Below, one piece after another: positions 5,834 to 52,864 of a DNA stretch of 64,000 nt. The stretch comes from a virus (Duplodnaviria; Caudoviricetes), in the IMG/VR virus record IMGVR_UViG_3300021400_001692, positions 1-64,000 of that record; one strand, given 5' to 3'. Every line of letters begins with the position of its first letter. Positions within the stretch are counted from its first letter, which is position 1. The notes beneath the pieces were generated by a model. That model was not told the DNA's origin. It ran no database searches and was given only the letters and a program-made list of their open reading frames with translations. A program made the translations under genes and the position numbers.

Positions 5834-6333
5834 CCACCACCTACTACGAAGCAGCGAGCGCATGGCTTGCATCAATGGCTGATAACTGGAGCCTGAAGCT
5901 CGTCATAGGCACGGCGACTGCTTTCCTTGCCGACGTATTCGGCGAGGACTTGTGGCTCATCACGGTGCTGTTCTGCCTGATAGCTGCGGACTTTACGCTT
6001 GGCATGCTGTCGGCACTGAAGCGCACGGGCGGGCTGGACGGCAGGCGCTTGCACGGCGGCATGGTGAAGTTCATTGCCTACGCCGCTGCGATAATCCTGG
6101 TATGGCTCGTGCAGGAGATCTGCATCAGGTCGATACACATAGAGCTGCCCATACTTGCGGTGTTCGCTGCGTATCAGAGCCTCACTGAGCTGAGCAGCGT
6201 CACCCGCCACCTGGAGCGCCTCGGCCTGAAGATGCCGGCTTTGCTGCACCGCATAACATCTGGCGGGGCTAAAAAGATGGATGAGAAGATTGATGAGGTG
6301 CTTGGGGTTGACGAGCACGTTGAGAATAGCTAA
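5830..6333 (+). CDS. Holin (toxin secretion/phage lysis holin-like)
   Basis: 167 aa with about 3 hydrophobic segments; family-like motifs ADFTLGMLSALK, GMVKF, TELSSVTRHLERLGLKMP. Confidence 0.75.
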   Translation: MTTTYYEAASAWLASMADNWSLKLVIGTATAFLADVFGEDLWLITVLFCLIAADFTLGMLSALKRTGGLDGRRLHGGMVKFIAYAAAIILVWLVQEICIRSIHIELPILAVFAAYQSLTELSSVTRHLERLGLKMPALLHRITSGGAKKMDEKIDEVLGVDEHVENS

Positions 6334-6364
6334 AAAGGAAACGGGGCGATTGCTCGCCCCGGTT
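6331..6364 (-). terminator. Intrinsic terminator of cassette A
   Basis: CGGGGCGA/TCGCCCCG stem with GCAA loop on minus strand followed by TTTCCTTTTT. Confidence 0.75.
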
Positions 6365-6735: not shown

Positions 6736-6776
6736 GTTTTCATTTTTCAGTTTTATAAATAACAGTGCGGAATAGC

Positions 6777-6830
6777 TAAAAAGAAACCCCGGAGGCTGGT
6801 GCGCTGTGCGCTTCCTCCGGGGGATTTTTG
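6777..6830. terminator. Bidirectional intrinsic terminator (cassette B)
   Basis: CCCCGGAGG/CCTCCGGGG stem with A-tract before and T-tract after. Confidence 0.75.
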
Positions 6831-7389: not shown

Positions 7390-7417
7390 AGTTTCCATAT
7401 CTCAATTTCTAATAAGC

Positions 7418-7466
7418 TAAACAAAAACGCGGCGGGTTGTTGACTTGTATGTCCGCCGCGTTTTTT
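7418..7466. terminator. Bidirectional intrinsic terminator (cassette C)
   Basis: AAAAACGCGGCGG/CCGCCGCGTTTTT stem. Confidence 0.75.
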
Positions 7467-7470
7467 CGCC

Positions 7471-7773
7471 TTAGAAGTCCACGGAGCGGGCCTTCGCCCG
7501 TTCCTCGTAGCTTCCCCTGAAGCAGGGGACACCTGCCCAAAGGCAAGTGTGCCCTGCCGGAACATATACGTCGTATTCCTGGGGCCACCCAGGAAATTCG
7601 ACGTATATGTTCCCGCCAGTGGCTGGCACAAGCAGGGAGCCGTTGAACTTCTCGGCTACCAGGAGCGCTGCCCCGACAGGGCCTCGCTCCTCGTACTCCT
7701 TACGGAGCTCTGCGCGGTGCTCCCGCGCCCACTCCAAGATTTCCGCCTGTTCGGCGGTGATGGGCAGTATCAT
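7471..7773 (-). CDS. Hypothetical protein (cassette C cargo)
   Basis: 100 aa, RBS AAGGAGGT, own promoter and terminator. Confidence 0.8.
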   Translation of the reverse strand: MILPITAEQAEILEWAREHRAELRKEYEERGPVGAALLVAEKFNGSLLVPATGGNIYVEFPGWPQEYDVYVPAGHTCLWAGVPCFRGSYEERAKARSVDF

Positions 7774-20250: not shown

Positions 20251-20252
20251 GC

Positions 20253-20278
20253 TAAAAAAGGGGCGCAAGCCCCTTTTT
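20253..20278. terminator. Bidirectional intrinsic terminator (cassette E)
   Basis: AAAAAGGGGC-GCAA-GCCCCTTTTT. Confidence 0.85.
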
Positions 20279-20286
20279 GGTTAGGG

Positions 20287-20700
20287 TTAGCGGCGCTTTT
20301 TGCGCCCGAATTTGTCGTAGCCCTTGCTGGCTTTGTTAGGTACGTAGTACTCATTCATTGTAATAACTTCAGGATTCATGGCATCTTCGCCAGGACCGAT
20401 TACGTCATACAAAGTTACGAAGTTTGTTTTTAAGTTACGTACGTATAGGCTACTACCATCTAAGAGTACAGCTTCATCACCGGTAGAGCATCCGCGTATA
20501 CGAACTTCGCAACCCTGATTTACCCTGACATATTTCCATACTACGTATGGCAGGACAACAGGCGTGAATTTGTCTTTTTCGCGTGCGTCACGTTCTCGGT
20601 TAAGCATTGTATTCAGCTGGTAGTTCTGCTTATCCATGCTGTGCATTTTGAATAGCAGGGCAACGACGACAACTGCAAGTATGGCGATTACCACCTCCAT
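20287..20700 (-). CDS. N-terminally membrane-anchored protein (cassette E cargo), paralog of 30082..30435
   Basis: Start moved to ATG 20700 with RBS GGAGGG; MEVVIAILAVVVVALLFK anchor. Confidence 0.8.
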   Translation of the reverse strand: MEVVIAILAVVVVALLFKMHSMDKQNYQLNTMLNRERDAREKDKFTPVVLPYVVWKYVRVNQGCEVRIRGCSTGDEAVLLDGSSLYVRNLKTNFVTLYDVIGPGEDAMNPEVITMNEYYVPNKASKGYDKFGRKKRR

Positions 20701-20795
20701 ATCAGTTTTCCCTCCACAGCTATGGCGACCCCACAATGAGGCATGCCTGGGTGAAGGGTAGATTAAGCGCGGAATGATGTCCACGCATTTAAGGG
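20701..20795 (-). ncRNA. Putative structured 5' leader RNA (copy 1), RBS-sequestering
   Basis: 28-nt and 14-nt blocks identical to copy 2; compensatory stems including anti-SD CCCTTCAC:GTGGAGGG. Confidence 0.6.
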
Positions 20796-20803
20796 CTTAT
20801 ACC
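20796..20803 (-). promoter_or_regulatory. Putative early promoter -10 (GGTATAAG), cassette E
   Basis: Conserved octamer; GCGAAA 17 nt upstream of TATAAG. Confidence 0.7.
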
Positions 20804-20829
20804 AAAGATTTTTCCGTGTTTCGCGCTTT

Positions 20830-20846
20830 CAGCGTAGCAATATTTA
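20830..20846 (+). promoter_or_regulatory. Putative late promoter (CAGCGTAGCAATATTTA)
   Basis: Motif copy upstream of 20880 operon. Confidence 0.65.
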
Positions 20847-20879
20847 CGTAGCAGATATTTTTACCTATGGGGAACACTA

Positions 20880-21773
20880 ATGGATCGGTATCCAGCTACA
20901 TATGACCAGACATGCGAGTTTGCCGGGCGCATGCTGATGGCGAAGTGCGCAGGGCAGATAGATGACGGCACATTTTCGGCTGCGATGCAGGAGTTTTACG
21001 AGGTAAACCCAGGCATTTCCGAAGAACTGGAGAAGACGGCATTTTTAGGCATGCATCCAATTCGCGGCGCCCAGAACATGTGGAATAGGTTCCAGATGGG
21101 CAGGATGGCACGGAAAGCCGGTGAAATGGATAAGATGCTTACTGGGCAGACATTTACTTTTAGGCCACAGTATGGCGCGTCTAAACAGATGTCGATAGGC
21201 GATGCTGAAAAGTGGCGAGAAAATATGATCTCTAAATATCAGGGATTGCTTAATAATAAAAAAGCGCCTGACTATGCTAAAAATAAGGCTAAGTATGAAA
21301 GCGCTCTGAGATATTACCAAGGCACAGACGCCCAGATCGAAGCCGCAAAGCAGCAGTTTAGGGCTAATAATAAAATGTCCTACGACTACGTCACCGGCCA
21401 GCGAAATCAGTTCAATAGCCGTGGCGACATTTACGCGCAGCGGCTTGCACGGAACCAGAACATGCCGTTGCAGCAGATGCAGGAACAGCAGCGCATGACC
21501 GAGTCCTTGGATAGGCAGCGGCAGGCCATGAATGACCGCACTATTGCCGAGCAGGACGCCACTACGAAGAGGCTCCAGCAGGAGGCGACGGACTTCCGCA
21601 ACGGCACGCAGCCTCAGCAGCAGGGCGGCGCCATAACTCAGTGGGTGAAGAACAATCCGTGGGTAGCCATTCCGGGGGCGGCAGCCGGATTTTACACATT
21701 GAATAATTTTATTGCGAACAGGCAGCCGCAGTATCCCCAGATGCCCATGTATCCCAGGGTAATGATGTACTAG
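20880..21773 (+). CDS. Putative internal head protein with double K-x-A leader
   Basis: 297 aa; AKCAG...EKTAF leader, Gln-rich coiled coil, C-terminal hydrophobic helix and Pro/Met/Tyr tail. Confidence 0.75.
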   Translation: MDRYPATYDQTCEFAGRMLMAKCAGQIDDGTFSAAMQEFYEVNPGISEELEKTAFLGMHPIRGAQNMWNRFQMGRMARKAGEMDKMLTGQTFTFRPQYGASKQMSIGDAEKWRENMISKYQGLLNNKKAPDYAKNKAKYESALRYYQGTDAQIEAAKQQFRANNKMSYDYVTGQRNQFNSRGDIYAQRLARNQNMPLQQMQEQQRMTESLDRQRQAMNDRTIAEQDATTKRLQQEATDFRNGTQPQQQGGAITQWVKNNPWVAIPGAAAGFYTLNNFIANRQPQYPQMPMYPRVMMY

Positions 21774-21783
21774 AGGTGGTTAG

Positions 21784-22503
21784 ATGATAGACACTAGAGA
21801 ACGCCTCGGCCACCTCCTTCTGGAAAAGGTTGCCGGCGGCATGGACGAAAGCACATTCAAGGCCGTGTTCACCAAGATGGCCGCTGGCGACCCCGTTTCG
21901 CTCACCATCGGACAGTGGCTGAAGAACGGCGCGTTTTTGCACAGGCCGCTGAATGCAGTGGCCGAGTCCCTTGTTGACTATGGCGCACGCAAGGCTTTGA
22001 AGGACAAGGCTGCAGCCAGGATGGCCGGCAGGGCCACGTTTGGCGCCGGTCCTATTGGAGGGCCTGCAAGCTGGCTCGGCAAGAAATTGTTCCAATACAC
22101 CAACGCCGGCACGAGGGCCAATCTTGGTTCGCTTGGGCCGACAGCCGCGGTGCTGAACGACGCTACGTCGACCATGAATGATCTTCGCACGTCGATGTTC
22201 CGCAATTCGGAATACGGCGGGAAGAAAGCGCTCAACAGCATTCTTGGTGAAAAGGAAATCAAAGACATCGCTGATTACGTTGCTTCGAAAGAGCAGCAGA
22301 ACATGAAGTATAAGCTGATCCGCGATGCCATAATTGCAAGCGGCCTGACTGGCGGCGGGCTTTTTGCCTATCACAAGCTGCTTAGGCCACAGCTTCAGCA
22401 GCCTCAGCAGCCTCAGCAACAGCCGATGGCAATGCCGATGCCAATGCCAATGGCAATGCCGATGATGATGCCGTATCCGGCAACGGTAAAGGCGGGTAGT
22501 TAA
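21784..22503 (+). CDS. Putative internal head protein with double K-x-A leader
   Basis: 239 aa; EKVAG...TKMAA leader, C-terminal hydrophobic helix and Q/P/M low-complexity tail. Confidence 0.75.
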   Translation: MIDTRERLGHLLLEKVAGGMDESTFKAVFTKMAAGDPVSLTIGQWLKNGAFLHRPLNAVAESLVDYGARKALKDKAAARMAGRATFGAGPIGGPASWLGKKLFQYTNAGTRANLGSLGPTAAVLNDATSTMNDLRTSMFRNSEYGGKKALNSILGEKEIKDIADYVASKEQQNMKYKLIRDAIIASGLTGGGLFAYHKLLRPQLQQPQQPQQQPMAMPMPMPMAMPMMMPYPATVKAGS

Positions 22504-23082
22504 ATGGGCGTGCTTCTTCCAGATAAGAATAGCCCGATCAATGCGCTGGGCTTCCACAGGGGAAAGATGTTCTCGATGCGCAACCTGTTGCCGGCGGCCT
22601 TTATTTTCGGCATGCCGGCGTACCAGTTTGGCAGCGGGAGCGATTCGCTTGGCGGGGCTGTCGGCGACAGCGTTGCCGGATGGTATGGCTTTGGGCTTGG
22701 TGAGCGCCTCATAGACAGGCTGTATCCCGACAATCCCATGGCGAAGGCGCAGGCGCAGAACTCCATCGACCGCGGGCTGGCAGCGCTTAAGCTGCATACG
22801 CCGGGAGAGACTCCGTCCATGCTTGCCCGTGCGCTGACCAGCAAGTTTGCGCGCGGGGCGCTCCGCATGGGCACGGGCATGGTGCTTGCCGGTGCGCTTG
22901 CGGACATGGGCAAGAAAGTTGGCGACAAGGTGCTGCCGCTGCGTAGGAAGAACGCTGAGGAGCAGGCCCGTGAGCGCCAGGAGCTTGTGGAGCGCGCCAG
23001 GTATGCGCAGCGCGTGCGCGAGACGCAGCTTGAAATGTTGAAGCAGAAGTACCCAGACGCGTTCACCGGAGATTTCGCATGA
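22504..23082 (+). CDS. Glycine-zipper membrane-like protein
   Basis: 192 aa; LGGAVGDSVAGWYGFGLG and GALRMGTGMVLAGALA segments; translationally coupled. Confidence 0.7.
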   Translation: MGVLLPDKNSPINALGFHRGKMFSMRNLLPAAFIFGMPAYQFGSGSDSLGGAVGDSVAGWYGFGLGERLIDRLYPDNPMAKAQAQNSIDRGLAALKLHTPGETPSMLARALTSKFARGALRMGTGMVLAGALADMGKKVGDKVLPLRRKNAEEQARERQELVERARYAQRVRETQLEMLKQKYPDAFTGDFA

Positions 23083-23405
23083 GATGTGAAGACATAGCTG
23101 TAGCGGCCGCGCTTGTTGACGCAGGGCTTGTGAAGGTGGCGTCCGACGAGGAATTTGAAGGCTTTGTCAAGGAGGCCTCGGCAGTGCCTGGCGACGACCG
23201 CCTTGTGGCGGCTCTGGGCACGGCGATCGAAAAGACGGCTGGTGATGAGCGCCAGAAGCTGGTTGACCTGCTGCTGCAGGTTGCCAGCAAGCCGCCCGTT
23301 ATAGCGGGTACGGCAGGAGCGGCCCTTGGCCTTTACCTTGGCAATGAATCTAAACGCACGCGGGACCAGCTGGGCCTGCCATACAATTACGAATACGAGT
23401 TCTAA
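23079..23405 (+). CDS. K-x-A-rich small protein, paralog of 12983
   Basis: AALVDAGLVKVAS and ALGTAIEKTAG match the 12983 protein. Confidence 0.75.
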   Translation: MRCEDIAVAAALVDAGLVKVASDEEFEGFVKEASAVPGDDRLVAALGTAIEKTAGDERQKLVDLLLQVASKPPVIAGTAGAALGLYLGNESKRTRDQLGLPYNYEYEF

Positions 23406-23407
23406 CG

Positions 23408-25435
23408 ATGCCTACTCCTACAGTGCAGCAGTACATGCAGCCGGCTGGCCCTGGCCCGGAACAGGGCGGTCCCGTTTCCGCGGACCAGATGTTTGAACAG
23501 ACCTTTGGGGATGCCGCATTTGCGCAGCTCAGTTCGCGATATCCGCAGCTGGTGAACTACGTTGTCACGTTCAAGATTCTCGATTCGAATGTTGACGAGG
23601 GCAAGGCTTTCGGCACGTTTGTGCTGCAGGCCGGAAAAGACTGGCGGTACATCCCCGTTGTCAGGGCGGAAGGCTCCGTAAATTCCTGCGAGCTTGTCTA
23701 CGACAAGGTGAGCAACACGTTCGAGCCGCTTTCCAATGATAGCGCCCAGAAGATAGTTTCCGGCAACATGACGCTCGGCGGGCAGCTGATGAACGGCAAT
23801 GTGCGCGTAGAGGATACACGCCAGCTGTTCAAGGACATGATCCGCCCGCCGTCGTCATCCAACGTGCTGCTGGCTTCCGGGCGCGGCGTTGCTGCGTTGC
23901 CAGACAATGCCAAGGAAGTTGTCGCCTCGTGGTTCAACGAGCACCCGCAGGAGCTTGCCAAGCTCGCGCAGTTCTACGACGTGAAGGAGCTTGCCGCGAA
24001 GCTCGCTCCCTCGCATGAGAAGGTTGCAGCCGAGCCAAAGAAGATGCCGGTGCACACTGTTGACCTGAAGAGCCTTACTGCAGACGTGGCGAAAGGCTTG
24101 AGCGACGATCAGAAGGCGTGCCTGAAGAAGCAGGGCTACCTCGTTATCCGAGAGGACGAGCCTGCCGTTGCGGCGCTCCCCTATGTCGGATTTTCCGACG
24201 CCGTCGAGCGCGATTTTGCCCTTGAGCAGTACGCATTTCCTCCCTGTGCAGAGCCTCCCAGGGCTGACGACATCCGTGTGTTTGCCGCTGACGTGTTCAA
24301 GGTCAACGGCAACGAGATGTCCTCGGAGCCTGCGCTGATTACGGGCAAGTACGCCTTCTTTGCCGGAGGCTATGCACGCACCGGCGAGTTCGGCGACCTG
24401 AAGAACGTCCTTTTCAGCAATCGCAGGTTCGAGCTTAAGCCTGAGGATTTTGAACGTGCCGGCGCAGTCAGCCCCGCAGAAGCTGTCCGCCGCGGCATCG
24501 ACGGCAAGAACATCGTCGTGCTCACTCCGGTGTTTACCGGACAGTGGAAAGTGGTTTGCGAAAACTTTTGGGCGCGCGGCGCAGGCAGCATTGTCAACGG
24601 CGACGTATACATCAATACGAGCGAAGGCGAGCTGCATTTCTCCCCTGTGCTGGAGCACGGGTTTATCTGCACTGGCGATAAGAAGCTTATTCCTACCAAT
24701 GCGAAGGTGATCGCCTTTGAGATGCGCGCCGACAGCTACGTGCCGCACGGGCTTGTGCGTTCTTTTGCCGAGCTGCGCACGCTTATCGCCGGGAGGGGCA
24801 AGAGCATCAAGGTTGTGCAGAATGGCCCGACCACGAGCATTACGGACGGCGAGACCAAGAAGACGGCAAGCTTCCTGTCCAAGGCGGCTGCTGCACAGCA
24901 CCTTGCTGAAACGTATGGCATGGATAACGCGCAGGTTGCACGCGCAATGGACAGCAGCGTGACCATGCTCTTCAACAAGACGGCCTTCGAGCAGGGCATG
25001 AGCGTTCCGCTGTATCCGCAGAGCCTGCCTCCGCAGGCGCCGACGCCACCGCAGATGCCCGGCGGCAATATGCAGAACTTTGCACCAATGACGCCTGGAA
25101 TGCAGCCAGGTACGCCGGCAGCCCCGATGTTCAATCCGCAGCCAATGCAGGCTGGCATGGCCACTGGCGATCCCCAGGCGGTGGATACCGGCATCCTGGC
25201 ATCGTTTGCCCAGGATCCGGACATCAAGCAGCTTCTCGTGGACTACCTGCCTGACTTCCTCAACCTGATGGACAAGCTTGGCCGCATTATCCTGCTGCTC
25301 TGCCTGGAAAAGAAGTCGCTTGAAGAGTTCTACGGCGGAGACAAGTACAGCGACCTGCTTGGCTCGTGCAGGAAGATGCTCAAGCTGCTTGGCGACGTGG
25401 CGTCTTCGCTGCAAACGTATGTGAGCATGGCGTAG
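23408..25435 (+). CDS. Large putative virion structural/core protein
   Basis: 675 aa, highly expressed-type codon usage, internal KLAA/KVAA/KTAS/KTAF sites, Pro/Gln/Met linker; family not recognised. Confidence 0.6.
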   Translation: MPTPTVQQYMQPAGPGPEQGGPVSADQMFEQTFGDAAFAQLSSRYPQLVNYVVTFKILDSNVDEGKAFGTFVLQAGKDWRYIPVVRAEGSVNSCELVYDKVSNTFEPLSNDSAQKIVSGNMTLGGQLMNGNVRVEDTRQLFKDMIRPPSSSNVLLASGRGVAALPDNAKEVVASWFNEHPQELAKLAQFYDVKELAAKLAPSHEKVAAEPKKMPVHTVDLKSLTADVAKGLSDDQKACLKKQGYLVIREDEPAVAALPYVGFSDAVERDFALEQYAFPPCAEPPRADDIRVFAADVFKVNGNEMSSEPALITGKYAFFAGGYARTGEFGDLKNVLFSNRRFELKPEDFERAGAVSPAEAVRRGIDGKNIVVLTPVFTGQWKVVCENFWARGAGSIVNGDVYINTSEGELHFSPVLEHGFICTGDKKLIPTNAKVIAFEMRADSYVPHGLVRSFAELRTLIAGRGKSIKVVQNGPTTSITDGETKKTASFLSKAAAAQHLAETYGMDNAQVARAMDSSVTMLFNKTAFEQGMSVPLYPQSLPPQAPTPPQMPGGNMQNFAPMTPGMQPGTPAAPMFNPQPMQAGMATGDPQAVDTGILASFAQDPDIKQLLVDYLPDFLNLMDKLGRIILLLCLEKKSLEEFYGGDKYSDLLGSCRKMLKLLGDVASSLQTYVSMA

Positions 25436-25436
25436 C

Positions 25437-26108
25437 ATGGATGAAAAAGCGGTTCAGGTAGAAGCGTGGGCTAAAAAGAAGGGCGCTCCCAAGGGATTTT
25501 CCAAGGCGCAGCTGCTCTATCTCAGGCATTGCCGCAAGGAGCCCGTGAAAAACGCAGATGCCGAAGCCGCTTTTGACGTGCATGAGAGCCTTTGGCAGCG
25601 CCGCATTGTCGAGGCGCTCATGCTCAGCGGATGCCCAGACGATGTTTTTACAGAAGCACTGGGTTTGCCGCAGGAGGCCATGGATATTTACCGGGAATTG
25701 TTCTTTGACCCTTCCAGGTTCAGGAACAAGCTGGCCATGATAGCCTATCTTGAGGAGCTTCCAGACCCGGAGGAGCGCACGCTCAAGATAATGGCGGTCA
25801 ATCTCGGCTACGAATTTGTGCTGTTCAAGTACATGAGCATCGTTCCGAAGTCCGAGGCACAGGATCAGATTGTGCAGAGGCTGTTCCTCTCGACGGCGTA
25901 CAAGGCCATGGCCATGAACTACGTGTCCATGAACTCAGCCACGATGAAGGTTGCCATTGAGCACGCGAAGCTCATGCTCAAGGCATACGAGGCGCTCAAG
26001 GATTTGAGCAGCGACAAGATGGAAACGGCGAACAATTTGTTTGAGGTGCTCGTAAAAGTGGACAGCGAGGCCAAGATAACGGAACAGATAGATGGAGAGA
26101 TAGGCTGA
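25437..26108 (+). CDS. Hypothetical helical protein, possible HTH
   Basis: 223 aa; IVEALMLSG..DDVFTEALGLPQEAMDIY resembles a helix-turn-helix. Confidence 0.55.
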   Translation: MDEKAVQVEAWAKKKGAPKGFSKAQLLYLRHCRKEPVKNADAEAAFDVHESLWQRRIVEALMLSGCPDDVFTEALGLPQEAMDIYRELFFDPSRFRNKLAMIAYLEELPDPEERTLKIMAVNLGYEFVLFKYMSIVPKSEAQDQIVQRLFLSTAYKAMAMNYVSMNSATMKVAIEHAKLMLKAYEALKDLSSDKMETANNLFEVLVKVDSEAKITEQIDGEIG

Positions 26109-27148
26109 TGGAATTTACAAGCGTGCCTTTTCAGGAATTGGCAGACAAGATAGCCCGCGCATTCATTGAGGATGGCGTTGACCTTGAGGACGGCGTCGTG
26201 CGCGAAGCGAAGGCGCGCGACCTTACGCCGGAAGAAATCAAGCGCCTTGTGGAGAAGAGCAATACGGCAGCTTCCGTGCTGTACCTGCGCAGCTCCGGTG
26301 ATAAGAAAGGCACGTTTACGCTTGCCAGCGTAAGCGGTGTGCTTGGAAAGACGCATCCTGACGAAGAAGATGAGGAAGAGGAGGGGGAAGAGAAAACCGC
26401 CTCTGAGTTCCCGGTGACGCGGTTTGGCGGGCTTGAGAAGCAGGCTGTAGTTGCTCCGATGCTGTTTGGCTCAGCGATTCTTGGCCAGCTGGCTGCCAGC
26501 CCGCTGCTGTACACTGCGCCGCTTTATGTTGCTATGGCTAGGAACAATCATAAGTTCCAGAGGGCCATGGCTATCCAAAATCACAGGGCGCAGCAGGCAT
26601 TTCGCCGTAAAGCATTGCTTACCGGCGCAGCTGTTGGCGCTCCGGTGGCCGCTGGCGGCGTCGCTGTTGCCGCAAACAACATGGATGCGGTGTCTCAGCG
26701 ACATGCGCAGCAGGCTGAAGAGGCAAAAGCCCGTGTTGATCGTGCTCTCGGCAAGACTGCGGCGCAGTATAACTCTGCAAAAAAGCATATTGCCGAGAAA
26801 AAAGTCGAAAAAACGGCTTGCGAGCAGGAAATGGGAGGCCAGTTGTCCGCTTTGCGGCGCATGTTCCTGTATAAACTGGCCGATTTCGACCAGTTTGCAG
26901 CTGAATCGCAGGCTCTTTTCCCGAAAACCGCCGCTTCCGTAGTCAAAGGCATCGCCACCGCGCTTAAAATTGAGCCGAAACAGGTAAAAATTGCATCTTT
27001 TATCGACGATTCGGCTCCGGAACTGGTGATTATGCGTTCCCTTGACAAAAATATGCGCAAGCACGCCGAAATTTCTTCGGAAATTGAGCAGCTTGAAGCA
27101 TTTCGTGATGATTTTATCCGCCAGTGGAAGGAAAAGGTGCTGAAATGA
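26108..27148 (+). CDS. Putative head protein with multiple K-x-A sites
   Basis: 346 aa; DKIA, EKTAS, EKQA, GKTA, EKTA, YKLA, PKTA, VKIA; hydrophobic segments between sites. Confidence 0.7.
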   Translation: MEFTSVPFQELADKIARAFIEDGVDLEDGVVREAKARDLTPEEIKRLVEKSNTAASVLYLRSSGDKKGTFTLASVSGVLGKTHPDEEDEEEEGEEKTASEFPVTRFGGLEKQAVVAPMLFGSAILGQLAASPLLYTAPLYVAMARNNHKFQRAMAIQNHRAQQAFRRKALLTGAAVGAPVAAGGVAVAANNMDAVSQRHAQQAEEAKARVDRALGKTAAQYNSAKKHIAEKKVEKTACEQEMGGQLSALRRMFLYKLADFDQFAAESQALFPKTAASVVKGIATALKIEPKQVKIASFIDDSAPELVIMRSLDKNMRKHAEISSEIEQLEAFRDDFIRQWKEKVLK

Positions 27149-27663
27149 TCACTTTGAGGGGCAAAGCGGCATTGCTGAAGCAAGGCAGCGCATTATCCGG
27201 GCAGCTAATGTCTGCTGCAGCGACAGCTGGCGGCATGGGGATGCTGTACAAGATGCTCCGTGGCGCAAACTTGCGTGGCGCCGTCTATGCAGAGGCGGCC
27301 CGCAGGGCTAAACTTCGCAAGGCAATGCTTCTCGGAGCCCCCGTAGCGGCAGGCGGAGCGGCCCTTACTGCACAGCAGCTCGGAGAAATGCAGAAACGGC
27401 ATGAAAAAACGGCTGGGGTGCTGTTCAATATGTTCACTGCCCCGGCAAAAGCGGCAATTGGCACCATTGGGCATACCGTGCAGGGCGCAGCAAAGTACCC
27501 TGTGCTCCTTGGAGCTCCTCTGGCGGCTGTTTTGCTCAGCATGGCTGGCAAAAACAACCCGATAGCGCGCGCGACCGCATATTCTGACCCATTGAACAAC
27601 GATTATTACCTTGAGCCGGGCTTCCTGGCTCCAAGCATTAAGAAGGTGCCTGGAAATGGCTGA
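27145..27663 (+). CDS. Glycine-zipper protein with internal EKTAG site
   Basis: ATG 27145 overlapping upstream stop; three hydrophobic segments. Confidence 0.7.
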   Translation: MITLRGKAALLKQGSALSGQLMSAAATAGGMGMLYKMLRGANLRGAVYAEAARRAKLRKAMLLGAPVAAGGAALTAQQLGEMQKRHEKTAGVLFNMFTAPAKAAIGTIGHTVQGAAKYPVLLGAPLAAVLLSMAGKNNPIARATAYSDPLNNDYYLEPGFLAPSIKKVPGNG

Positions 27664-28111
27664 TTATCCTAAGAGTTTAGAGAAGGAAGCTGACGACAAG
27701 CAGCAGTGGCAGCTTGTTCGAGCCGCGGACAACGGCTTTTCCCTTGCAAAGCTGCTCCAGGAGGGAGCGGGAAAGGCATTCATCCCTGGACTGGTGCTCG
27801 GAGCGACCAGCCTCGGCGTTTTGTATGACAAGCTGAAGGGCGACAACCGCAGGAAGGCCATTTTTGAGAGCCTTTGCTGGGATCCGATGTTCAAGGACAT
27901 GGATAAGTCGCAGCTTTTGCAGTGGTACACGACGATTTACCATTATGCTCCGCGCACGTCGCTGGACAAGGTGGCTACGAAGGAGCTTCTGCGCCAGTTC
28001 ATGACGTTTGGGCGCGTTGACCTGCAGACGCTGAAGACGCTTGCTGAAACAGAGAAGGCCATGGCCGAGGCGGAAAACAAATCACCGTCACTGGCGGCAT
28101 TATGGAAATAA
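27656..28111 (+). CDS. Putative head protein with EKEA leader
   Basis: ATG 27656; one hydrophobic segment then helical domain. Confidence 0.7.
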   Translation: MADYPKSLEKEADDKQQWQLVRAADNGFSLAKLLQEGAGKAFIPGLVLGATSLGVLYDKLKGDNRRKAIFESLCWDPMFKDMDKSQLLQWYTTIYHYAPRTSLDKVATKELLRQFMTFGRVDLQTLKTLAETEKAMAEAENKSPSLAALWK

Positions 28112-28245
28112 TCAGCGGAAAAACGATTCTGGAGAAGCTTGGCGCGGCACTTTACCTGCATGTGAAGCAGGCTGAGGATGCGAAAAAGGCCAAGGAAGCG
28201 GTTGAGTACCTGCAAAGCAAAGGCGTGCTTAAATGTACAAAGTGA
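28102..28245 (+). CDS. 47-aa ORF missed by the ORF track (contains VKQA)
   Basis: MEIISGKTILEKLGAALYLHVKQAEDAKKAKEAVEYLQSKGVLKCTK fills the gap and overlaps both neighbours. Confidence 0.55.
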   Translation: MEIISGKTILEKLGAALYLHVKQAEDAKKAKEAVEYLQSKGVLKCTK

Positions 28246-30035
28246 TTGAGCTTGGCGCCACTGTTCCGGGCACCGGCGAAGCCAGGGTAAGCCTGATCAA
28301 GGACGGCATTTTCCAGAAGACCGCCTCCAGCGAGATACAGGACTACTGGGACAAGCTGAGCAAGGAAGACGGCAAGGCCTACTTGTGGGTGATTGGCGTT
28401 TCCGCGCAGGAGTTCTACGGGTGCAACTCGAATGGCGATGCCTTTACCGAGGCAGACCTGAAGAAGAATCACCATTACTTCACGGACGAGGCGCATGTGT
28501 TCATGCACCATGTGAACAAGGACCCTGCGAAGTCGATAGGGAAGCCTGTGTTCACTTGGTACAACGACGACATGCACCGCGTGGAGATGATTCTCGGCAT
28601 CGACCGCAATGCCAACGGCGCAGCCGCCATTGTGCAGCGCCTGGAGCGCGGAGAGCAGCTGTATGTGAGCATGGGTTGCAGGGTAGCGTTCGACCAGTGC
28701 TCCATCTGCGGCAACAAGGCGCCATCCCGCATGAAGTACTGCGAGCATCTTCGCTACCACATGAAGAAGATTCTCAAGGATGGCCGCCAGGTTTGCGCGT
28801 ACAACCCTGACCCGCACTTCTTTGACATTTCCATCGTGAACCGCCCGGCCGATCCGACTGCCTTTGCCCTGGACAAGATAGCTTCGGAGGGAGGCATGGA
28901 ATACGAGGACATTGAGAAAACCTCTGCGGAGCTTGGTGAAGAAGCTGAAGCCTATCAGCAGAAGCTTGCTGCCGTGGATAAGCTGGCGGACATAATCAAG
29001 CGTGTGAAGGGCGAAATTGTGGACCATACGGGTATACGGGACATCCGCGAGCGCGGATTTGAAGATACTGAGTACCCGTCCACGCCACACAAGAAGCTGA
29101 TTGTGATGAAGGTCAGCCCTGGCGGATTGGCTGCGCTGATGCCGTCGCTTGGCGCTCCGCTTTCCTTTGGCGACGCGCTCTACATGGGCGGAAGGCACAT
29201 GTTTGGCGACGGGTTCACAGAGAGCCTGATTCCGAGCATTATGGAGATGATTCCCCGTGCGCTCGGAATACTGCATGAGCATCCGGAACACCTGGATGGC
29301 ATAGTCCGCGAGGTTACCGGCGATTATGGCGGCGAGTTCGATGACCCTGTCCGCCGGGATTCCATTGTGCGTGCCATGCGCCCGCATGCGGAAATACGCA
29401 TCACTGTGTTTTCCAAGATGGCGGAGTCTGTTACGGAAGAGAAGGTGCCTGGGCTTGCCAGGGAGATATTCTCTTCCCAGGGAAGCAACTTCAAGCCTGT
29501 CGTGCTCAAGGATGGCAGTAAGACGTCTCCATACCACATCAGGGAAACGGCCCAGTTTGAAAATCTTGGCGGCTTGAGGAGCAAGGTGCTTGGCGCTGCG
29601 CTTGGCGCGGCAGCTATTGGCGCCGTACTTACGGCTCCCAGCAGCGCAGATGCCATGCTTTACGGCACGGTTATGGGCTTGCCTGCAGCGCATCTCTTGA
29701 TGGGCAACAAGCCTGACAAGGTTGTGAAGACGGAAGATGGGCGCACAGTGTCCGCCGGGCTGATGAAAAATACCTGGCGCTCGCACCCGGACAGGGAGAA
29801 AGTCGCATCGCTGCGCCTGCCCACCATAGCCGGCATGGCTATTCCGGCAGCGCTTGCACTGGATTACTCCTTCAACGACTGGGTGTATGACAACGACCCC
29901 ATGGCCCAGATGCAGAACGACTCCTACTTTGACCGCATCCGCAATCATGTCGGGAAGTTCTCCAAGGAAAATCCGCTGATTGCGGTAACGCTTGGCGGGC
30001 TTGCCGGGGCGGCGCTGCCTTTCGGCAGGCGCTGA
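28233..30035 (+). CDS. Prohead (capsid maturation) protease with Zn-finger insert and long C-terminal extension
   Basis: NGDAF, FMHH (His), VSMG (Ser), CSIC...C..H, DISIVNRPAD, resembling HK97/assemblin-type protease motifs; upstream of scaffold and capsid genes. Confidence 0.8.
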   Translation: MYKVIELGATVPGTGEARVSLIKDGIFQKTASSEIQDYWDKLSKEDGKAYLWVIGVSAQEFYGCNSNGDAFTEADLKKNHHYFTDEAHVFMHHVNKDPAKSIGKPVFTWYNDDMHRVEMILGIDRNANGAAAIVQRLERGEQLYVSMGCRVAFDQCSICGNKAPSRMKYCEHLRYHMKKILKDGRQVCAYNPDPHFFDISIVNRPADPTAFALDKIASEGGMEYEDIEKTSAELGEEAEAYQQKLAAVDKLADIIKRVKGEIVDHTGIRDIRERGFEDTEYPSTPHKKLIVMKVSPGGLAALMPSLGAPLSFGDALYMGGRHMFGDGFTESLIPSIMEMIPRALGILHEHPEHLDGIVREVTGDYGGEFDDPVRRDSIVRAMRPHAEIRITVFSKMAESVTEEKVPGLAREIFSSQGSNFKPVVLKDGSKTSPYHIRETAQFENLGGLRSKVLGAALGAAAIGAVLTAPSSADAMLYGTVMGLPAAHLLMGNKPDKVVKTEDGRTVSAGLMKNTWRSHPDREKVASLRLPTIAGMAIPAALALDYSFNDWVYDNDPMAQMQNDSYFDRIRNHVGKFSKENPLIAVTLGGLAGAALPFGRR

Positions 30036-30039
30036 TAGC

Positions 30040-30077
30040 TAAAAAAGGGCAAGCGGCTTTACGCTGCTTGCCCTGTT
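30040..30077. terminator. Intrinsic terminator (cassette F)
   Basis: AGGGCAAGCGGC/GCTGCTTGCCCT stem preceded by A6. Confidence 0.75.
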
Positions 30078-30081
30078 ACCG

Positions 30082-30435
30082 TTACCCGAACAGGCGGTGG
30101 AGCAACGAAGCCTCACGGAGAACCTTGCACTTGCCGAGCCGCCCTACGCCGTCTTTTCCGACATATGGGTGGAACACAACAAGTTTGCCACGCTTGTCCT
30201 GGACGATAAGCTCCTTGCCGGCAAGCATAACTTTTTCTCCGGTTCTCTTTATGGTTACGCGCTGTCCCTGATAGACCCGTGTGCCATGGTACTGGACCCA
30301 CGGCATAGCCTCATTGCGGATGCGATGAGCCATGCGTTTCATCATGGGAAGGTCGCTTTCGGACTGGGCTATCTTTCCCTGAAGGTATGCGGCGCCGAGA
30401 CAACAGGCGCCAGTGATTACGGCTAACGGCCACAT
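30082..30435 (-). CDS. N-terminally membrane-anchored protein (cassette F cargo), paralog of 20287..20700
   Basis: Start moved to ATG 30435 with RBS GGGAGGG; MWPLAVITGACCLGAAYL anchor. Confidence 0.8.
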   Translation of the reverse strand: MWPLAVITGACCLGAAYLQGKIAQSESDLPMMKRMAHRIRNEAMPWVQYHGTRVYQGQRVTIKRTGEKVMLAGKELIVQDKRGKLVVFHPYVGKDGVGRLGKCKVLREASLLHRLFG

Positions 30436-30526
30436 AGGATTCCCTCCCATTGTTATGGACGCCCCACAATGAGGCTTCCGTAATGGAAGGTATATTAAGC
30501 GCGGAATGATGTCCACGCATTAACGG
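30436..30526 (-). ncRNA. Putative structured 5' leader RNA (copy 2), RBS-sequestering
   Basis: Identical blocks with copy 1; anti-SD CCTTCCATT:AATGGGAGG pairing. Confidence 0.6.
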
Positions 30527-30534
30527 CTTATATC
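30527..30534 (-). promoter_or_regulatory. Putative early promoter -10 (GATATAAG), cassette F
   Basis: One-base variant of the octamer; GCGAAA 18 nt upstream of TATAAG. Confidence 0.65.
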
Positions 30535-30568
30535 AAATATTTTTTCTGAATTTCGCAAACTAGGTGCT

Positions 30569-30587
30569 ACAAACTTTATGTAGCAGA
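30569..30587 (+). promoter_or_regulatory. Degenerate late-promoter motif (ACAAACTTTATGTAGCAGA)
   Basis: Shares TTTA(C/T)GTAGCAGA with the 18948 and 20843 copies; upstream of the scaffold-capsid operon. Confidence 0.4.
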
Positions 30588-52120: not shown

Positions 52121-52864
52121 ATGGTTAAGCAGCCTGCGCCTGTCAACGCGCAGTTCAAAGTTGACGACATCGACCTTTGGAAGCAGTACAAGAAGTCGCA
52201 TTCCAATGTTGACAGGGACGCCCTCCTGAAGCGCTTTGACAGTCTGATACAGACGCAGGTGAACAAGTGGGCCGGCCCTGTGCCGCGCCAGGTGCTGCTT
52301 ACCGAGGCAAAGCTGCTGGCCATCAAGGCGTTCGACACATACAAGGAAGGGCAGGGCGCTGCCCTTGGCACGCACGTCGTCAACAATCTGCAGCCTCTGT
52401 CCCGCGTGGTGTACACGTACCAGAACTCCATGCGCCTGCCTGAGAACGCCACGCTTAAGATGCACGCCTACAACACGGCCAATGAGAACCTCAAGGCGTT
52501 CTACGGCAGGGCGCCAACCACGGACGAATTGCACAGCGAGCTTGGCTGGACTACGAAGGAAATTTCGCGCATCCGCGACTACGCGCACAACAACCTGATG
52601 GAATCAGGCCCAGAAGTTTCCGGCGACTTTTTCAGCAAGCGCGATGACGATTCCGACGTTATCCTGGCTGGCATCTATGCCGAGCTGCTGCCCGATGAAA
52701 AGACGCTGTTCGAGTTCACCACTGGCTACAACAACAGGCCGAGACTTTCCAACCCGGAAATAATGAAGCGCCTGCACATTACGCAGTCGCAGCTTTCCTA
52801 CAGGAAGAAGCTGCTCACCGACAAGATCAAGTCCATAGAAAAGAGGTACAACGTCAATGGCTGA
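52121..52864 (+). CDS. Phage-encoded sigma-70-family RNA polymerase sigma factor
   Basis: Region 2-like AIKAFDTYKEGQGAALGTHV, region 3 YGRAPTTDELHSELG, region 4 HTH LSNPEIMKRLHITQSQLSY. Confidence 0.85.
   Translation: MVKQPAPVNAQFKVDDIDLWKQYKKSHSNVDRDALLKRFDSLIQTQVNKWAGPVPRQVLLTEAKLLAIKAFDTYKEGQGAALGTHVVNNLQPLSRVVYTYQNSMRLPENATLKMHAYNTANENLKAFYGRAPTTDELHSELGWTTKEISRIRDYAHNNLMESGPEVSGDFFSKRDDDSDVILAGIYAELLPDEKTLFEFTTGYNNRPRLSNPEIMKRLHITQSQLSYRKKLLTDKIKSIEKRYNVNG

What the first reader, a model, noticed from the sequence alone, without database searches (positions are those of the whole stretch)
20701..30526. Novel structured leader RNA with compensatory changes that hides the RBS (two copies)
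The leaders of E (20701-20795) and F (30436-30526) keep an identical 28-mer (20762-20789 = 30494-30521) and 14-mer (20729-20742 = 30462-30475), although their proteins are highly diverged. In the transcript, the 28-mer forms hairpin GCGUGGA-CAUCAU-UCCGCGC flanked by UUAA. A second long stem pairs an anti-SD with the SD in both copies using different bases (CCCUUCAC:GUGGAGGG in E; CCUUCCAUU:AAUGGGAGG in F). It encloses GGC:GCC versus GGA:UCC and a G-U versus G-C pair around CCUCA-UUG-UGGGG. Covariation plus an invariant hairpin suggests an undescribed translational switch (protein-, ligand- or temperature-controlled).
Basis: partly seen in the sequence, partly recalled or inferred. Interest (0 to 1): 0.85.

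Follow-up and report, generated by a model that had tools for sequence, protein, structure and literature searches.

The report
Ribosome-site lock on duplicated phage genes
Two distantly related membrane-protein genes of a rumen phage keep the same two-hairpin RNA leader that hides the ribosome-binding site; it has no database match, but it most likely works like known phage and toxin leaders, where only a shortened transcript can be translated.

Summary
In detail: the 28-mer, the 14-mer and both folds are as described, there are only two copies in the 79-kb record, and there is no Rfam match. E and F are distant paralogs with saturated third codon positions, yet promoter plus leader stay about 76% identical, so the leader is under real constraint (or was gene-converted). 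The structure is RNA-like: G-U pairs form only on the transcribed strand. Covariation from two copies is only suggestive (p 0.015-0.14), and no third homolog was found. A thermometer or a two-state riboswitch is not supported. Best reading (about 40%): a two-promoter gate like T4 e/soc/49/I-TevI. The strong upstream TATAAG promoter makes a silent long RNA; a weak sigma70-like promoter nested in the 28-mer (TGGACA-17-TACCYT, p about 0.01) starts just past the anti-SD and gives a translatable short RNA. Main rival: activation by processing or a trans factor, as in type I toxin mRNAs. Related Desulfovibrionaceae phages carry unrelated small hydrophobic genes with RBS-occluding leaders in the same slot. 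This scan noted promoter-in-hairpin gates before, in other phages. Nothing was tested by expression data.

The parts
20287..20700 (-). Gene E, 137 aa: N-terminal hydrophobic helix plus small beta domain, function unknown; distant paralog of F
   Evidence: no Pfam/PHROG family
30082..30435 (-). Gene F, 117 aa: weaker hydrophobic N-terminus plus beta domain; sits in the family-wide moron slot after the prohead protease
   Evidence: slot
20796..20803 (-). P1 of E: GGTATAAG -10-type promoter motif shared by all minus-strand cassettes; predicted start near 20790
   Evidence: motif recurs upstream of early genes in this phage and in relatives; start site inferred
30527..30534 (-). P1 of F: GATATAAG; predicted start near 30521
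   Evidence: start site inferred
20767..20786 (-). Hairpin 1 of E (7 bp, 6-nt loop, -10.2 kcal/mol) at the 5' end of the P1 RNA; invariant core of the 28-mer
30499..30518 (-). Hairpin 1 of F, identical to E
20755..20783 (-). Candidate nested promoter P2 of E: -35 TGGACA (20783-20778), 17-nt spacer, -10 TACCCT (20760-20755); predicted start 20748, just 3' of the anti-SD
   Evidence: p about 0.01 in shuffles; 8/12 consensus, below the 9/12 cut-off; inferred
30487..30515 (-). Candidate nested promoter P2 of F: -35 TGGACA (30515-30510), 17-nt spacer, -10 TACCTT (30492-30487); predicted start near 30480
   Evidence: inferred
20751..20758 (-). Anti-SD of E, pairing with 20710-20717
20710..20717 (-). 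SD-containing 3' arm of the outer helix of E
30482..30490 (-). Anti-SD of F, pairing with 30443-30451
30443..30451 (-). SD-containing 3' arm of the outer helix of F
20729..20742 (-). Invariant 14-mer of E: apical helix of the long stem; would become the 5' hairpin of a short RNA
30462..30475 (-). Invariant 14-mer of F; one strain change (30468) falls in the loop
20251..20278 (-). Intrinsic terminator of E (hairpin plus T run, flanked by A and T runs so likely bidirectional)
   Evidence: read from sequence
30037..30074 (-). Intrinsic terminator of F
   Evidence: read from sequence
20837..20848 (+). Divergent late-promoter motif (CAATATTTA) back to back with P1 of E; degenerate copy near 30567-30580 for F

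Best explanation
The element is the promoter-leader module of a duplicated moron cassette, and it works as a translational gate set by where transcription starts. Shown from sequence and computation: RNA starting at the TATAAG promoter P1 begins with a protective 5' hairpin and folds the anti-SD onto the SD as soon as the SD is made, so it should be almost untranslatable. Inferred: a weaker sigma70-like promoter P2 is built into the same DNA, with its -35 at the stem-loop junction of the invariant 28-mer and its -10 overlapping the anti-SD. RNA from P2 starts just past the anti-SD, keeps the 14-mer hairpin as its own 5' cap and has a much freer SD. E and F protein would then come only from P2, while firing of P1 gives silent RNA and probably occludes P2. 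Inferred purpose: keep a membrane-anchored protein that is harmful in excess (superinfection-exclusion or toxin-like) at a low level, or confined to one stage such as the lysogen.
For: Lock: z -2.8/-4.3; SD unpaired probability 0.00 in full-length mRNA and RBS-opening cost 8-13 kcal/mol at nearly all transcript lengths; 4 and 3 G-U pairs on the transcribed strand, with the opposite strand folding 7-8 kcal/mol worse. Constraint: 79/104 leader columns identical against 20% third-codon identity in the paralogous genes. P2: a >=5/6 -35 with TAnnnT arises in about 1% of shuffled leaders, and only 17 such sites exist on both strands of 79 kb, two of them these; the 17-nt spacing is free of indels although indels flank it; the P2 RNA lowers RBS-opening cost from 10.7 to 4.3 (E) and from 11.1 to 7.2 (F) kcal/mol. 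An unrelated slot leader (L021) has an 11/12 nested promoter that lowers the cost from 15.4 to 5.1. Precedent: T4 e, soc, 49, I-TevI (PMC3014915). Desulfovibrio sigma70 has a shortened -10 box (PMC4045070).
Against: P2 is only 8/12 and breaks the TTG of the -35, whereas Desulfovibrio sigma70 relies on a strong -35. It is one of about eight patterns I looked for after the fact. The closest relative (L018) has the same two-hairpin architecture without a P2, and most other slot leaders lack one. The L021 -35 partly overlaps a TTG that often follows P1 anyway. In F the short RNA can still pair its SD weakly with the start-codon region (cost 7.2). No factor was found that would make P1 and P2 fire at different times; P2 does not match the phage late motif.
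Confidence: 0.4

Rival explanations
1. Type I toxin-like activation: one primary RNA from P1 is inert and is switched on by endonucleolytic removal of the 5' part (an RNase III-type cut in the long irregular stem, or 5' processing) or by a trans factor (host or phage RNA-binding protein, or small RNA) that recognises the invariant hairpins. The active species is the same short RNA as in the best explanation, made by processing.
For: An untranslatable primary transcript with an anti-SD is a hallmark of type I toxin mRNAs (PMC6733600; PMC13000454). All 12 sampled genes in the post-protease slot encode a hydrophobic segment, and their leaders occlude the RBS more than other TATAAG leaders (mean 11.4 vs 6.7 kcal/mol, p 1e-4, not corrected for kinship). 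L018 keeps the architecture without P2. Invariant loops fit sequence-specific binding.
Against: No antitoxin RNA was identified. An antisense promoter-like site exists only in F (about 30184-30211, + strand), not in E. The phage ncRNA array pairs no better than background. E and F (117-137 aa) are larger than typical type I toxins, and toxicity is untested.
Confidence: 0.27
2. No switch: a 5' stabilising hairpin plus a strong RBS helix set a constitutively very low translation rate for a membrane protein transcribed from a strong promoter.
For: Slot leaders of unrelated sequence converge on RBS occlusion; no alternative fold within 7.5 kcal/mol; 3 of 40 structural genes have equal or higher opening cost.
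Against: It does not explain invariant unpaired bases in two blocks while silent sites are saturated. The anti-SD is made before the SD, which leaves no kinetic window, so output should be near zero.
Confidence: 0.15
3. Leader-peptide coupling: a leaderless AUG at the P1 start opens a uORF (first nine codons identical, with His-His in the hairpin-1 loop); a ribosome running into the anti-SD frees the SD.
For: AUG lies 7-8 nt after TATAAG in both copies; a simulated footprint over the anti-SD lowers the cost to 4.7-7.6 kcal/mol.
Against: Hairpin 1 starts at the G of that AUG and should block leaderless initiation. The uORF frames diverge after about codon 14: it stops before the SD in E but runs out of frame over the start in F. 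ATG is common near these promoters.
Confidence: 0.07
4. RNA thermometer or ligand riboswitch.
For: The SD helix contains a conserved U-G wobble; invariant loops could bind a ligand.
Against: SD unpaired probability is at most 0.02 up to 60 C; no mutually exclusive fold is shared by both copies; no Rfam hit; no wider distribution.
Confidence: 0.05
5. The invariant blocks are DNA signals (an operator palindrome over the P1 start, or recombination/gene-conversion tracts as in PeSLs), and the RBS helix is incidental.
For: The 28-mer is an imperfect 7-6-7 palindrome immediately downstream of P1; shared promoter cassettes mediate recombination in T4-like phages (PMC2839356).
Against: The imperfections are G-U wobbles only on the transcribed strand; differences outside the blocks keep the pairing; relatives show the same RBS occlusion. 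An operator role may coexist with the RNA role.
Confidence: 0.06

Closest known systems
T4 RBS-sequestering leaders with a nested promoter: genes e, soc, 49, I-TevI (review PMC3014915)
   Same: SD held in a helix on long transcripts; a promoter encoded in the 5' strand of the helix would give short, translatable RNA
   Different: In T4 the nested promoter is a proven late promoter and the long RNA is read-through from distant genes. Here the nested promoter is a weak, unproven sigma70-like site and the upstream promoter is only about 45 nt away with its own 5' hairpin.
Type I toxin mRNA leaders (aapA3, PMC6733600; timP, PMC13000454; dinQ, PMC5066626)
   Same: Stable, structured, translationally inert primary mRNA with an anti-SD, in front of a hydrophobic protein
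   Different: No antitoxin RNA or processing site was identified; the proteins are 117-137 aa with a beta domain; toxicity is untested.
PeSL cassettes of T4-like phages (PMC2839356, PMC4122927) and lambdoid morons
   Same: Repeated promoter plus stem-loop module in front of orphan genes; single-gene units with their own promoter and terminator inserted against the structural operons
   Different: PeSL stem-loops act as terminators for upstream transcription; here hairpin 1 has only 4 T in the next 8 nt, and the main helix hides the SD. The two copies go with paralogous genes.
RNA thermometers (ROSE, fourU) and translational riboswitches (from own knowledge)
   Same: SD paired in a 5' UTR helix with a G-U pair
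   Different: The helix is far too stable to melt in the physiological range; there is no ROSE or fourU motif and no aptamer family match.

Membership tests
T4-type promoter-in-hairpin translational gate | SD sequestered in a helix on the long transcript | tested here: met
   (prediction only)
T4-type promoter-in-hairpin translational gate | Second promoter positioned so that its RNA lacks the anti-SD | tested here: inconclusive
   8/12 sigma70-like site in both copies, p about 0.01, start 3' of the anti-SD; below the cut-off; absent in L018
T4-type promoter-in-hairpin translational gate | The two promoters fire at different stages | not testable with these tools
Type I toxin-antitoxin | Translationally inert primary mRNA with anti-SD | tested here: met
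   (prediction only)
Type I toxin-antitoxin | Cognate antitoxin RNA, antisense or divergent | tested here: inconclusive
   antisense promoter-like site in F only; no complementary intergenic RNA in the held 57% of the genome
Type I toxin-antitoxin | Small toxic hydrophobic protein | tested here: inconclusive
   hydrophobic N-terminus but 117-137 aa; toxicity not testable
PeSL cassette | Repeated promoter plus stem-loop upstream of orphan genes | tested here: met
PeSL cassette | Stem-loop is an effective terminator | tested here: inconclusive
   hairpin 1 has 4 T in 8 nt and is not called as a terminator (which also missed the real 3' terminators)
PeSL cassette | Recombination between copies shuffles genes | not testable with these tools
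   cargo turnover in the slot is seen across relatives, mechanism unknown
RNA thermometer | SD helix melts between about 25 and 45 C | tested here: not met
   SD unpaired probability at most 0.02 up to 60 C in silico
Riboswitch | Match to a known aptamer family | tested here: not met
   Rfam gathering and E-value searches
Riboswitch | Mutually exclusive alternative fold that frees the SD | tested here: not met
   best SD-free fold +7.5 kcal/mol, simple opening only; pseudoknots not modelled

The most novel reading that the evidence does not exclude
The invariant hairpins are the binding site of an undescribed trans-activator (a phage RNA-binding protein such as the Sm/Hfq-like gene, the E/F beta domain itself, or an RNA) that unlocks a silent, stored mRNA for a membrane effector only on superinfection or induction. 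That would be a new phage riboregulator, and the post-protease slot of Desulfovibrionaceae phages would be a reservoir of such RNA-gated membrane effectors.
Probability: 0.12. Interest if true: 0.75.

Novelty: new variant of a known kind. Interest (0 to 1): 0.36.

Why it matters
It gives a compact, testable example of translational gating in an uncultured phage family of sulfate-reducing gut and rumen bacteria, and shows that these phages keep a fixed slot where unrelated small membrane-protein genes arrive with RBS-locking leaders. If the two-promoter gate holds, it extends the T4 late-gene mechanism to a probably temperate myovirus. If a trans-activator exists, it would be a new phage riboregulator. 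The principle itself is known, and the element is confined to one phage lineage.

Tried and rejected
Homolog searches found nothing beyond 99%-identical strains: exact and gapped patterns in IMG/VR (hits unrelated, one a chance terminator); JGI metagenomes (13 hits, all inside coding sequence); GenBank phages; a covariance model over about 840 kb of related loci and five genomes; protein searches for E and F. BLASTP missed the E-F paralogy; Smith-Waterman with shuffles found it. Folds of E and F were low confidence and matched nothing clearly (Atlas); weak phmmer hits of E were beta-propeller repeats, so my KOW idea is unsupported. A stretch of the F coding sequence (30296-30334) complementary to both leaders looked striking (p 0.0003 within the two genes, 0.21 genome-wide), but it has no counterpart in E, and two strain SNPs weaken it by 4-5 kcal/mol without compensation, so it is treated as probable chance. 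The ncRNA array is not a base-pairing partner. Sigma54, RpoH (judged by eye) and phage late-promoter matches in the leader were rejected. Hydrophobicity does not correlate with RBS occlusion across all TATAAG genes. One search used a mis-typed structure and is void; one search replaces it. PMC12724379 does not describe this prophage group.
Full report
Setting. The window is the first 64 kb of a 78.8-kb virus record, about 57% complete. Strains about 99% identical occur in ENA metagenome assemblies, one on a 148-kb scaffold; the sample label SHIW14 suggests sheep rumen (my reading of the label). It is a myovirus (tail sheath, prohead protease). Relatives at 41-46% protease identity lie in Desulfovibrio and Mailhella genomes, including a block of about 55 kb in a Desulfovibrio piger scaffold, so the host is probably Desulfovibrionaceae and the family may be temperate. 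No integrase was found in the held part.

Observation. Both blocks are exact and unique to the two sites. On the minus strand each leader folds into a 7-bp 5' hairpin, an 8-nt A/U linker and a three-helix stem whose outer helix pairs an anti-SD with the SD (z -2.8 and -4.3). Rfam has no match. The shared DNA is longer than reported and includes a TATAAG promoter and a divergent late-promoter motif. E and F are two of six minus-strand cassettes in the window that use this promoter motif; the four whose 3' ends I read in full end in terminators, as do E and F.

Is the structure selected? E and F proteins are paralogs: Smith-Waterman score 60, reached by 0 of 20,000 shuffles, 18/53 identities in the beta domain, third-codon identity 20%. 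Neutral DNA should be unalignable at that distance, but 79 of 104 promoter-leader columns are identical. The helices contain 4 (E) and 3 (F) G-U pairs that become mismatches on the other strand, which folds 7-8 kcal/mol worse; this favours RNA over a DNA palindrome. All differences at paired positions keep pairing, but two copies give little power: 61 of 500 shuffles reach the covariation score, and random descendants keep an equally good stem in 1.5-14% of trials. The only strain change in a leader falls in a loop. Gene conversion between copies cannot be excluded as a cause of the invariant blocks.

Family context. In about a dozen related phages the position right after the prohead protease holds a small minus-strand gene behind the same promoter motif, with unrelated cargo. 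All 12 sampled products have a hydrophobic segment. Their leaders occlude the RBS more than other TATAAG leaders (11.4 vs 6.7 kcal/mol, p 1e-4; 0.004 against long leaders only; three pairs are kin). The closest relative, L018, has the same layout (short 5' hairpin, A-rich linker, irregular SD-hiding stem) in a different sequence; this leader is the top hit of the model there, though only at E about 1. RBS locking is therefore a recurring property of the slot, while this sequence family is private to one lineage.

What could unlock it? The SD is essentially never free in the P1 RNA at any length or below 60 C, and the best SD-free fold is plain opening at +7.5 kcal/mol. That argues against a thermometer or a two-state riboswitch, and suggests that the translatable species lacks the anti-SD. 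The 28-mer contains TGGACA followed after 17 nt by TACCCT (E) or TACCTT (F). Such a site arises in 1% of shuffled leaders and occurs 17 times on both strands of the record. Its predicted start lies just 3' of the anti-SD, leaving the 14-mer hairpin at the 5' end of a short RNA whose RBS-opening cost falls to 4.3 (E) and 7.2 (F) kcal/mol. This is the layout of T4 e, soc, 49 and I-TevI (PMC3014915). One unrelated slot leader has a stronger nested site with the same effect (L021). Against it: the site is 8/12 with a broken TTG, Desulfovibrio sigma70 has a strong -35 and a short -10 (PMC4045070), L018 and most slot leaders lack it, and I examined several patterns after the fact. The same short RNA could be made by processing, as in type I toxin mRNAs (PMC6733600, PMC13000454), but no antitoxin was found. 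A leaderless uORF and a long-range pairing with the F coding sequence were examined and rank lower.

Verdict. A real, constrained RBS-locking leader on a duplicated moron cassette. It works like T4 promoter-in-hairpin gates or type I toxin leaders; membership of either is unproven. The lock is well supported by computation; the key is inferred (nested promoter 0.40, processing or trans factor 0.27, constitutive damping 0.15). Earlier notes of this scan describe promoter-in-hairpin gates in other phages; I had noted the idea before reading them, and they are not independent evidence. New variant of a known kind; interest 0.36.

Noticed in passing
window 30296-30334 (-), inside F coding sequence: Complementary to the upper hairpin of the E leader (22 bp, two 1-nt bulges) and of F's own leader (about 20 bp); top duplex hit genome-wide. 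Probably chance, since two strain SNPs weaken it and E has no counterpart.
   Followed up: yes
post-protease slot in L018:5195-5620, L019/L020, L021:11887-12141, L023:11931-12235, L024:11699-11915, L025:11901-13100, L038, L070, L071: Conserved moron slot between the prohead protease and the next late operon, with unrelated 39-117 aa single-helix membrane proteins, many resembling type I toxin peptides, behind TGTTATAAG promoters and RBS-occluding leaders.
   Followed up: partly
L018:5474-5570 (-): Two in-frame start codons, each with its own SD-occluding hairpin in tandem: a dual-start arrangement reminiscent of holin/antiholin starts.
   Followed up: no
window 20251-20256, 30037-30042, 6330-6340, 6770-6780, 7415-7425 and relatives: Cassette terminators end in a conserved TTTTTAGC(T) motif in this phage and in distant relatives; possible recombination or termination signal.
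   Followed up: no
window 20701-20784 and 30436-30516 (-): Both leaders are open and in frame with the main gene from a GTG near the 5' end (28 and 27 extra codons), and both have an AUG at the predicted start of transcription.
   Followed up: partly
window 30184-30211 (+): Sigma70-like site (TTGCCA-16-TAAGCT) pointing antisense through F toward its leader; no counterpart in E.
   Followed up: partly
window 7886, 12921, 18944, 20839, 35583, 52097, 57803 (+): Late-promoter motif CAATATTTA, conserved upstream of structural operons across the phage family; the 247-aa protein at 52121-52864 is highly conserved (58-70% identity in relatives) but has no Pfam hit.
   Followed up: partly
G000 65634-66725 and 77540-78326 (-), L072: The reverse-transcriptase-like gene and the Sm/Hfq-like gene noted by other readers have homologs in the 146-kb relative G002:C9 (41% and 40% identity); the ncRNA array does not pair with the E/F leaders.
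   Followed up: partly
window 7556-7616: A 29-bp near-perfect inverted repeat inside the coding sequence of cassette gene C (7471-7773).
   Followed up: no
G001:C47:92000-147000 (L057-L060): The D. piger ATCC 29098 scaffold carries a large block of this phage family's structural genes; I did not find it among the prophage groups listed in PMC12724379.
   Followed up: partly
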